The translations under genes and the position numbers were made by a program. Shown here piece by piece: positions 46,701 to 49,700 of a stretch of 64,000 bases of DNA. Source of the stretch: Lingula anatina (lineage: Eukaryota > Animalia > Brachiopoda); the NCBI GenBank assembly GCA_051362555.1, contig CM120640.1:59808788-59872787 (forward strand). The letters are read 5' to 3'. The notes under the pieces are model-generated. The model was given only the letters and a program-made list of their open reading frames with translations, did no database searches and was not told where the DNA came from. The first letter of the stretch is position 1. Every line of letters begins with the position of its first letter.

Positions 46701-49700
46701 GAAGTATATCACATATAGGGGAAAATAATCTCTGTAATTGAAAAATAACAGATATTTTTTGCAGAAACAATAGGTTTTATGTAAGATGAGATACTTCAAA
46801 TACATTTCCTTGTATGCTGATGTGGTAGTTGATGTTTGCATGATACCAGTTTTTTTTTTTTTTTTTTTTTTTTTTTTTTTTTTTTTTTTTTGTTTGTTTG
46901 TTTGTTTGTATATTTTGTGTAACACAACTCTGTTTAGGTTTCATAGTTCTTTCTCTGACCACTTCTTAGTTTTGTTACAATCTTTAATAGTTAATATAAT
47001 GTCACATGTTTAATACATTTCAGTATCCAGTTGAACATCCAGATAAGTTCCTGAAATTTGGCATGACCCCTTCCAAAGGTGTACTGTTCTATGGACCACC
47101 AGGTTGCGGTAAAACCCTACTGGCAAAGGCTATTGCCAATGAATGCCAGGCTAACTTCATCTCCGTCAAAGGTCCAGAGTTGTTGACTATGTGGTTTGGT
47201 GAATCAGAGGCCAATGTTAGGGATATATTTGACAAGGTACTTTGAAATGGATTTTGTTTTTTATATTATTTTTATTTTATTTATTTATTTATTTATGTAT
47301 TTTATTTGTTTGTCTTTTTTTTTACAAGAATGTATTTTTGTAAGAAAATATTCTTTGCTATTAAACAGAAACACATTGTAGTGATTATATAAAAAATATA
47401 TTTTGAGAAAACAGTATAGAGGCATTAACATATTATCTGTAGGCTCGCCAAGCAGCCCCATGTGTGCTGTTCTTTGATGAGTTGGATTCCATTGCAAAGG
47501 CACGTGGTGGAAATGCTGGTGATGGGGGTATGTAGCCTTACTTTGTATTGTAAGATGAGTAAGAGAGAGAAAATTATTGGTAGCCTTTTCTTCTTATATT
47601 TGCAAAGATAGAAAGGCAGGTTTGCTAGTCTAAATGCCATGTATTTTAATAGAAAGCTTTCAGTTTGCCATATTTGTGTTACCTTTACCTAGGAAATATA
47701 ACAGAGAAGTAGACATATTTTAAAGGAATTGTCACAATAATTGTGCAAGAAAACTACTTTGAGTACTTCTGAAAAGATAATGTGCTTATCGAAATGAGCT
47801 GGGCTGTCTTGGATCTTGAGATGCATGCTAACCACATTATGGCCACCTTTTGAACTTCTTGGAACAAAGAGCAAAAGTTTCCTAAAATGCACCACAGGTA
47901 TGCTACAGTGTTCCTGCATTTCGTTTGGTAATTTGAATGAATGTTATTTGTACCCAAAAGGTGGTGCTGCTGACCGTGTGATTAACCAGATGCTTACAGA
48001 AATGGATGGTATGGGTGCAAAGAAGAATGTCTTTATCATTGGGGCTACCAACAGGTATGAAGTGGGATAGTATGATCATAGGCACTGTTGATTTCTTTAA
48101 GGCCAGTGTTTGTGTTGGACAAGCCACTACTATCCAAAATAATGCTCTTTTTGATTATTTGTCATTTTAAGTCACCCTACTTGCAATCATGATCATTTTG
48201 TCATGGAACGTGCTGAATGTCACTTATATTCCAAAAATGATTGATCACAACATTATGGATGGGTATGGTTTGTTCATCTCACACTGGTCTTGCTGATGTC
48301 AGCAATGCTTTTAGCCATAGCTGTATTGATAAAGTTATCCTTTATCTGAAAAGGTGGTGCTGCTGATCGTGTGATCAATGCAATCCTCTCAGAAATGGAT
48401 GGTATGTTTACAAAGAAGAATGTGTTTGTAATAGGAGCAACCAACAGGTATCTGTAATAAGTGTACTCCACATTTTGAAGATTGTCCATGCATGTGCTGT
48501 ATCAGGTTAAACTTATGGATTGGCCATTTGCATGGTAATACCTTCATTGTGATCTCAAGAAAGCTCCTGCATGGGTAGTCTCAAAAATCATGTTTTGATA
48601 TGATTATAAGACTGTGCCAGAATATGTTGCTACAGCAGACACTGAAATGAGTGAGACTCCCAAGATTTCTGTTCACTTTTAGTACTTGTGCCTGTTTTAG
48701 CCCCAAAATCCATAATGAAAATTGGCTGGAAACACATCAGTGAGAAATCACCTGACATTTGTGCCACTATATCAAATGTAAAAGCACATTCTCACACAGT
48801 TTTATACATTATCAGTAAATATGAAGCAGATATATAGGTGCACCAATATAATGAAGAAAAAATCTATAATAAAAATCATTGAATTATACATGCCAACCTT
48901 AGCTATAGGTTTTAAAACTGAATTTCTGATTGCTACTGATTCAGCAAAAGCAAAATTGCTTGCTAACAAATTGTAGAGCATTATGTTTGAATTTGAAAGT
49001 TAAGATAATTGCTTGGCATATAATTGGAATATATAAATCAAAATATTAAAGAACCACAAGCTTTGCAAACAGATGTCAGCTGTGTGTGATTAATTGCTAA
49101 TGTAAAATGGTGATGAAAAATCAACATAACAAATTTTGTTTTTGGCTAAAATACCTTACTGCTGTAAGCGATGCTTATGCTGCTTGATGTATTGCTTTCT
49201 AATATCAGTATAAAGTTGTTTCTGCCAGGAAAGTTTCTGCACCTGAAACATTTCAAATTTAGAAGAAAAAAATGTGCACTTTCATTTTTATTTATGCCTC
49301 TTAATATTTTCATTTAATGTTACTTGCTATGCTTTTAAAGTCCAATTTGTTTATCCAATTCTTTTGAATGATTAACTGCCACCTAAGGTTAATCAGAAAC
49401 TTGTTCTCAGTGCTTCTTCAATTTTGAGACATTTTAACATTTTGTACCTTCCCCTCATTTCCATATTCCTGTTATATTGACCAACTTCAAAGTAGTATCT
49501 GGCTTGTGAACTTCCAGCAACAACTTTTGTTCTTATAGAAAAGTTGACAAAAGTAATTTGAAGTCTGCCATATTGTATAACAAGTCAAATTTAGTTGTTT
49601 GTCCATGAGTAGAGAACAGTTCTACAATAAATTTTTTGTTTAACTTTGTTGATTGTGGAAAAAGCATTTAAAAAACTTTTGGGCACACTTGTTTTTTTTT

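What the first reader, a model, noticed from the sequence alone, without database searches (positions are those of the whole stretch)
47961..48447. Mutually exclusive duplicated exon rewires the D2 ATPase ring of VCP/p97
Seen: two 94-nt homologous exons 299 nt apart with identical phases and splice signals. 15a encodes [32 protein letters not shown] and 15b encodes [32 protein letters not shown]. Many third-position differences with no stop or indel point to an old duplication under purifying selection. Including both or neither shifts the frame, so only one-of-two splicing yields protein. Knowledge: this segment (human ~594-625) covers the end of pore loop 2 (R599), the DGM inter-subunit signalling motif, the loop contacted by allosteric inhibitors, and sensor 1 N624. 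It is very highly conserved in p97/Cdc48 and is a constitutive sequence in mammals. Inference: splicing produces two p97 protomer types (Q603A, T606S and a bulky Phe after DGM in 15b) with different ring coupling or ATPase activity, possibly as mixed hexamers. This would be a tissue-specific tunable unfoldase; I know of no description of it.
Basis: partly seen in the sequence, partly recalled or inferred. Interest (0 to 1): 0.88.

Follow-up and report, generated by a model that had tools for sequence, protein, structure and literature searches.

The report
Twin-exon switch in brachiopod p97
In the lamp shell Lingula, the gene for the essential protein-unfolding motor p97/VCP carries two copies of one exon and RNA reads show that messages use one or the other (the second in 0-29% depending on the sample), which likely gives a cell-type-controlled p97 variant with three otherwise near-invariant residues changed beside the loop that couples its subunits.

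Summary
Confirmed and expressed. Two 94-nt homologous exons (A 47961-48054, B 48354-48447) lie in the p97/VCP gene; a RefSeq protein carrying B names the organism as the brachiopod Lingula anatina, so B is already machine-annotated (isoform X3). In four RNA runs both exons join the same neighbours, no both/neither joint was listed, and B makes up 0 of 83, 1 of 141, 19 of 81 and 22 of 77 junction reads. dN/dS between copies is 0.16. B keeps every catalytic and inter-subunit residue but changes Q603, T606 and 612 to residues seen in 0 of 586 other p97 segments. New here: three Rbfox-type TGCATG motifs 42-121 nt downstream of B, the only such cluster in 64 kb, suggesting a muscle/neural switch (untested). 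No twin of this exon was found elsewhere, but no other brachiopod was identified among the sequences. Mytilus isoforms point to an independent twin of the neighbouring exon, and the scan earlier noted a different duplicated p97 exon on other DNA. Tissue, protein and ATPase effect are unshown, so 'rewires' overstates. A new member of a known class in an unusual gene.

The parts
40778..54985 (+). p97/VCP (transitional ER ATPase) gene, 19 coding exons per message, 801 aa
   Evidence: Gene model; 14 of its joints listed in RNA reads (table truncated); 790 of 801 residues identical to RefSeq XP_013398563.1 of Lingula anatina
47443..47527 (+). Exon 14 (D2 Walker B, pore loop 2), common upstream exon
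   Evidence: Joined to both A and B
47822..47832 (+). Single TGCATG followed by CTAAC, 139 nt upstream of exon A (possible repressing site; weak)
   Evidence: 3 of 10 single-copy control loci also have one TGCATG within 200 nt upstream
47961..48054 (+). Exon 15A, default copy (human 594-625)
   Evidence: used in all 8 runs laid
48055..48353 (+). 299-nt intron between the copies; ordinary branch-point-like motifs at -25 and -58, AG at -20
   Evidence: no A-to-B joint listed
48354..48447 (+). Exon 15B, regulated copy (A603, I604, S606, F612, T613, V619 in human numbering)
   Evidence: RefSeq isoform X3
48489..48573 (+). Cluster of three TGCATG (Rbfox-type) motifs at 48489, 48529, 48568, +42/+82/+121 from B's donor
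   Evidence: only place on either strand of the window with 3 in 200 nt; 57 of 20000 dinucleotide shuffles reach 3
51217..51346 (+). Exon 16 (arginine-finger region), common downstream exon
   Evidence: Joined to both A and B

Best explanation
The Lingula p97/VCP gene holds a tandem-duplicated exon pair that is spliced one-or-the-other, with copy B used in 0-29% of messages by sample, likely switched on in Rbfox-expressing cells such as muscle or nerve and predicted to give a still-working p97 subunit with altered coupling in the D2 ring. Shown: the two exons, their use with the same neighbours, the frame rule, selection on the pair, the motif cluster. Inferred: (1) A is the default; Rbfox bound to three UGCAUG just downstream of B promotes B, and both copies have the same purine-rich AAAAG acceptor that may leave them open to regulation; (2) both/neither products are removed by nonsense-mediated decay; (3) B keeps R599, the D609-G610-M611 signalling motif, K615 and sensor 1 N624, but loses Q603 and T606 on the helix leading into the motif and puts Phe right after it, so the helix-to-loop change by which the motif docks in the next subunit would be retuned rather than abolished; (4) cells making both messages would build mixed hexamers. 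Rough odds by step: real alternative exon 0.97; cell-type regulation through Rbfox 0.6; measurable change in D2 activity or coupling 0.6.
For: Junction reads A/B: X1 83/0, X4 62/19, X7 140/1, X5 55/22; heterogeneity p 1.6e-13; depth gives the same picture (21%, 27%, 4%, 0%). No A-to-B and no skip-both joint listed (threshold 3 reads). dN/dS 0.157, Fisher p 0.0007; flanks no longer align above shuffles (287 and 63 of 1000 reach the score); neutral simulation at half of dS leaves 6 or fewer residue changes in 0 of 20000. Q603 585 of 586, T606 586 of 586, position 612 only S/G/N/T in 586 of 586 other segments. TGCATG cluster, absent downstream in 10 of 10 single-copy control loci. [quoted passage not shown] ISS mechanism from 10.1101/2021.02.08.430295 passages. 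Ala at the 603-equivalent occurs in divergent AAA modules (P0466, P0518), so it need not break the fold.
Against: Tissues are unknown: both B-rich runs come from one study (P2), and a third P2 run (X6) has at most about 14% B by depth, so genotype or library cannot be excluded. In one search the joint table was cut (41 rows hidden), so B joints in X6, X2, X8, X9 could not be read. If all but one amino-acid change and only half the silent changes fall on B, dN/dS is 0.27 with Fisher p 0.13; at a B-branch distance of 0.15 the neutral simulation passes 13% of the time. No B-like exon in any other species sampled. The motif cluster was noticed by eye before testing. Absence of both/neither joints may reflect decay, not strict exclusion. 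No study of Q603, T606 or F612 missense changes was found. No protein evidence.
Confidence: 0.6

Rival explanations
1. B encodes a dampened or dominant-negative subunit: a splicing brake that slows mixed p97 rings in some cells, rather than a retuned working motor.
For: It removes two residues fixed in 585-586 of 586 other segments and puts a bulky Phe where only S/G/N/T occur, next to the loop whose locking by NMS-873 stops translocation. B never exceeded 29% in bulk.
Against: All catalytic and ISS residues are kept and dN/dS is low; a poison exon could be made more simply with a stop; bulk share may hide near-100% use in one cell type.
Confidence: 0.15
2. B is a slowly decaying or nearly neutral duplicate whose inclusion is leaky or depends on genotype, with no selected function.
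For: Most residue changes are on B; worst-case B-branch test is not significant (p 0.13); found in one species only; inclusion tracks study.
Against: Open frame, exact length and both splice sites kept while the flanks have lost alignability; silent divergence 0.77 against 0.12; up to 29% inclusion; TGCATG cluster; one B joint and B coverage also in X7, a run that differs from the reference at several sites.
Confidence: 0.12
3. The switch changes modification or location rather than motor coupling: B has Thr613 (and Ser606) where A has Ala613, restoring a phospho-acceptor of the S612/T613/K614 patch.
For: A review states that phospho-S612, phospho-T613 and acetyl-K614 promote nuclear localisation of human VCP (PMC10405438 passage). 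A has G612-A613, B has F612-T613.
Against: The primary paper could not be read; T613 occurs in only 53 of 586 segments; it does not explain Q603A or F612.
Confidence: 0.1
4. Assembly artefact, second allele or paralogue placed in tandem.
For: The assembly itself could not be examined (no genome held; no DNA runs laid).
Against: Reads join B directly to exons 14 and 16 of this locus; 19% divergence and unalignable flanks far exceed the scattered single-site differences of the runs; X4 and X5 express both forms.
Confidence: 0.02

Closest known systems
Tandem duplicated exon substitutions / mutually exclusive homologous exons (PKM, MEF2D alpha1/alpha2, Mhc; 236 human events, PMC8373072, PMC9741552)
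   Same: Tandem homologous exons of equal length and phase, one-of-two use, key functional residues kept, regulated minor form.
   Different: VCP is absent from the human catalogue (0 hits, PKM control 5) and VCP/TER94 from the later paper's tables that include a Drosophila list (0 hits, Mhc control 1). The changes here hit near-invariant positions, whereas the abstract says most such changes are conservative.
RefSeq XP_013398563.1, transitional ER ATPase isoform X3, Lingula anatina
   Same: Carries the exon-B peptide exactly; identical to the window's B form from residue 7 on.
   Different: Automatic model with no description; its first six residues come from intron 1, whereas reads join 40794 to 42092 in 4 of 4 runs.
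Rbfox-controlled mutually exclusive exons (MEF2D alpha2; C. elegans unc-32 7a/7b and egl-15 5A/5B)
   Same: UGCAUG in the intron downstream of the second exon; unc-32 is also an ATPase-complex subunit.
   Different: Here binding and dependence are untested; in unc-32 the motif downstream of 7b favours 7a, so the direction cannot be taken for granted.
coq-2a/coq-2e of helminths, molluscs and annelids (PMC7434440)
   Same: A housekeeping enzyme whose core is remodelled by swapping homologous exons in invertebrates only.
   Different: There the switch is shared across phyla and its function is proven; here one species and no function shown.
Mytilus VCP isoforms X1/X2 and the scan's note e1-7142703

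Membership tests
Tandem duplicated, mutually exclusive exons | Homologous exons in tandem in one gene, same length and phase, canonical splice sites | tested here: met
Tandem duplicated, mutually exclusive exons | Each copy spliced to the same flanking exons | tested here: met
   all four joints present; B upstream joint in 3 of 4 runs, B downstream joint in 2 of 4
Tandem duplicated, mutually exclusive exons | Mature messages hold one copy, not both or neither | tested here: met
   neither joint listed in 4 of 4 runs (threshold 3 reads); decay could hide them
Tandem duplicated, mutually exclusive exons | Both copies under purifying selection | tested here: inconclusive
   Pair dN/dS 0.157, p 0.0007; B branch alone in the worst case 0.27, p 0.13
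Tandem duplicated, mutually exclusive exons | Tissue- or stage-specific use | tested here: inconclusive
   Sample-specific (0-29%); tissues not given
Tandem duplicated, mutually exclusive exons | Conserved in related species | tested here: inconclusive
   No B-like segment in 586 others or 68 loci; no other named brachiopod among them
Tandem duplicated, mutually exclusive exons | Both proteins detected | not testable with these tools
   No proteomics
p97/VCP/Cdc48 | Full-length N-D1-D2 protein with Walker motifs, ISS, sensor 1 | tested here: met
   (705 of 801 identical to a macaque record)
p97/VCP/Cdc48 | B form hydrolyses ATP and unfolds substrate as a hexamer | not testable with these tools
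   Single-sequence model pLDDT 36, uninformative
Rbfox-regulated exon | UGCAUG cluster in the proximal downstream intron | tested here: met
   controls
Rbfox-regulated exon | Rbfox binding and dependence; motif conservation across species | not testable with these tools
   Needs minigene, knock-down or relatives' DNA
Steric (distant branch point) exclusion | Branch point close to upstream donor with long AG-free zone | tested here: not met
   AGs at -20, -34, -40, -52 of B's acceptor; branch-like motifs at -25 and -58; one TTGAT at +37 from A's donor lacks the AG-free zone
U2/U12 incompatibility | One U12-type donor | tested here: not met
   Donors GTATGTAG, GTATGAAG, GTATCTGT, none RTATCCT (consensus recalled)
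Docking-site/selector RNA pairing | One element pairing competitively with both copies | tested here: inconclusive
   Donor regions pair best near 50018-50107 (2 and 1 of 40 shuffles), but shorter tests gave different partners (4 and 6 of 100) and other donors pair as well

The most novel reading that the evidence does not exclude
Lophotrochozoans have repeatedly and independently turned p97 into a splice-tuned motor by duplicating single ATPase-ring exons (ISS/sensor-1 exon in Lingula, Walker B exon in Mytilus, lid exon in another genome), and Lingula's Rbfox-driven B exon makes a muscle or nerve p97 with different D2 coupling that co-assembles with the default subunit: a natural p97 hetero-hexamer and a natural test of what Q603, T606 and residue 612 do.
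Probability: 0.25. Interest if true: 0.75.

Novelty: new member of a known kind. Interest (0 to 1): 0.52.

Why it matters
p97 is among the most conserved eukaryotic proteins and a drug target, and a review says the relevance of its splice variants is poorly understood (PMC10405438 passage). An expressed, regulated exon swap at the D2 inter-subunit loop gives a natural variant at three positions fixed elsewhere, beside the NMS-873 site, that can be expressed and assayed directly. With the Mytilus twin of the next exon it suggests repeated evolution of p97 isoforms by exon duplication. The limits are one species and no function shown.

Tried and rejected
No genome held. No RNA holder listed in the index; raw-read runs of the same species label were used; 8 of 9 were laid, X3 not. 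The wide lay was swamped by intronic repeats and hid 41 joints. B-specific pattern in metagenome contigs: 0 matches. Protein searches for B-like sequences: none among 120 of 228 short hits, 120 of 7631 long hits, 120 of 3708, 150 of 530 representatives and the listed members of 17 different clusters, except the Lingula record itself; clustering at 90% and 50% hides isoforms, so this is weak. 68 genomic loci, 44 spanning exon 14 to 16, showed no second full copy. Steric, U12 and docking-site mechanisms not supported. No RNA family in the introns (3 weak matches, all below threshold); the G+C-rich intron element folds only at z -1.9. Single-sequence fold of B uninformative. Complex prediction not run, since p97 self-assembly would pass by likeness to solved structures. 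Paper searches for prior description gave nothing on a duplicated VCP exon by listing and abstract start; searches on residues gave no missense data for Q603 or T606. PMC2898386 not held. bioRxiv supplements were not seen.

Full report
Observation. 11 of 18 differences are at third positions. They sit in a 19-exon p97/VCP gene (40778-54985). Either exon gives 801 aa; both gives a stop after 625 aa and neither after 604 aa, each more than 400 nt before the last junction, which by the usual rule (recalled) invites nonsense-mediated decay. The segment is human 594-625.

Organism and annotation. A cluster look-up returned XP_013398563.1, 'transitional endoplasmic reticulum ATPase isoform X3 [Lingula anatina]'. 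It has the B peptide exactly and differs from the window's A form only at residues 2-6 and the six exon positions. The window is therefore from this brachiopod (lineage), and B is already in an automatic annotation.

Expression. Raw reads of four runs were laid on 46950-51450 (6-25% of each run read). Joints into and out of A: X1 46/37, X4 31/31, X7 57/83, X5 31/24. Into and out of B: X1 0/0, X4 3/16, X7 1/0, X5 15/7. B share: 0 of 83, 19 of 81, 1 of 141, 22 of 77; chi-square p 1.6e-13, though mates make reads not fully independent. No A-to-B or skip-both joint was listed (threshold 3 reads). Four more runs (X6, X2, X8, X9) were laid on the whole gene; the joint table hid 41 rows, so B joints could not be read; depth arithmetic bounds B at about 14, 5, 9 and 12% and allows zero. 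X4, X5 and X6 share a study. Tissues are not given, so 'sample-specific' is shown and 'tissue-specific' is not.

Selection. Between copies dS is 0.77 and dN 0.12 (ratio 0.157, Fisher p 0.0007). The 250-nt flanks do not align above shuffles (287 and 63 of 1000). Against this reading, placing all but one residue change and half the silent changes on B gives 0.27 with p 0.13; a neutral simulation leaves an open frame with 6 or fewer changes in 0, 0.5 and 13% of 20000 runs at distances 0.38, 0.25 and 0.15.

What B changes. Of 642 distinct proteins fetched (the Lingula record and the two queries left out), 586 have a segment at least 23 of 32 identical to A (98 distinct segments): Q603 in 585, T606 in 586, position 612 only S, G, N or T. 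B has A603, S606, F612. Its I604 (310), T613 (53) and V619 (42) are ordinary. The set was chosen by similarity and is redundant. R599, D609, G610, M611, K614, K615, N616, N624 and R625 are the same in both copies. Passages read: the ISS motif turns from helix to a loop that inserts in the next subunit, with M611 and D609 as key residues, NMS-873 locks it through K615, and R599A abolishes unfolding (10.1101/2021.02.08.430295); loop T613-V617 moves on triazole binding (PMC11316111); N624 is sensor 1 and pore loop 2 is 590-594 (PMC10216129); a Phe in the DGF type of motif stacks in the neighbour, while degenerate motifs behave otherwise (PMC7018516); S612/T613/K614 are modified in human VCP (review PMC10405438; primary paper not held). 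That B retunes coupling is inference; a single-sequence fold was useless (pLDDT 36).

How the choice is likely made. Three TGCATG lie at +42, +82 and +121 from B's donor. It is the only hexamer with three copies in those 200 nt and the only such cluster on either strand of the window (21 and 27 sites in 64 kb); 57 of 20000 dinucleotide shuffles reach three; Poisson p 0.0013 over 19 donor flanks. It was seen by eye first. In 10 control loci (8 distinct exon sequences) with a single free-standing 94-nt exon, none has the motif within 200 nt downstream, 3 have one upstream, and all have CAG or TAG acceptors, whereas A and B both end in AAAAG. [quoted passage not shown] Steric exclusion, U12 incompatibility and RNA docking were not supported.

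Other species. No B-like segment appeared in the protein searches other than the Lingula record; a B-specific DNA pattern found 0 metagenome matches; 68 loci with an intron after this segment, 44 of them spanning exons 14 to 16, hold no second full copy (the same search finds B in the window). No other named brachiopod was among them, and clustering hides isoforms. Unexpectedly, four Mytilus species have equal-length isoform pairs that differ at three residues, all inside the exon-14 segment, and two Mytilus models read through a partial second copy in tandem: likely an independent twin of the neighbouring exon, inferred from proteins only. The scan's note e1-7142703 reports a duplicated 55-codon p97 exon in another genome (not tested).

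Comparison and novelty. This meets the core tests of a tandem duplicated, mutually exclusive exon pair (PMC9741552 abstract). VCP is not in the human catalogue (supplement of PMC8373072) nor VCP or TER94 in the tables of PMC9741552. Five paper searches (listings and abstract starts) found no description. coq-2 is a proven invertebrate parallel (PMC7434440 passages). PMC8861141 was searched and gave nothing used.

Verdict. Real, expressed and variably included; a new member of a known class in a gene where it has not been described, though already machine-annotated. The regulatory and functional steps are inferred. Interest 0.52.

Noticed in passing
Proteins P0260/P0367, P0361/P0364, P0363/P0369, P0370/P0366, P0368, P0371 (segment matching window 47443-47527): Mytilus californianus, edulis, galloprovincialis and trossulus VCP isoforms X1/X2 differ only at three residues in the Walker B exon segment, and two models hold a partial tandem copy: likely an independent twin exon in mussels.
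   Followed up: partly
L048:3-107 and L027 (contig end): Broken partial tandem copies of the exon 14/15 region at contig ends of unnamed loci; young duplications or assembly artefacts.
   Followed up: partly
window 49950-50110: G+C-rich intronic element (46% against about 30%), single copy in the window, with two GCATG and the window's only ACTTACCTG at 50001 (complement of a donor consensus); low sense-strand read depth in several runs; fold z -1.9, no Rfam match.
   Followed up: partly
window 42075-42091: RefSeq isoform X3 starts with six residues from the end of intron 1; reads join exon 1 (40778-40794) to 42092 in 4 of 4 runs.
   Followed up: yes
window 40725-55126: Runs X8 and X9 differ from the reference at many fixed sites (24 shown in coding exons), unlike X2 and X6: a divergent population or cryptic species under the same label.
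   Followed up: no
window about 42100-42750, 51443-51789, 52630-52830, 54630-54846: Intronic repeats that attract reads from elsewhere on both strands, including a long palindromic element near 52630-52830 with a relative near 8320-8580; probably mobile elements.
   Followed up: no
Protein P0244: A Saccostrea VCP model has unrelated residues exactly in place of this exon (592-619); probably a gap or mis-annotation.
   Followed up: no
window 4000-36000: Neighbouring genes seen in frame translations, labels recalled and untested: clathrin-linker-like, QPRT-like (minus, 7530-9753), kinesin-like coiled-coil (10229-18372), membralin-like (minus, 22654-28193), Vps55/LEPROT-like (minus, about 35400).
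   Followed up: no
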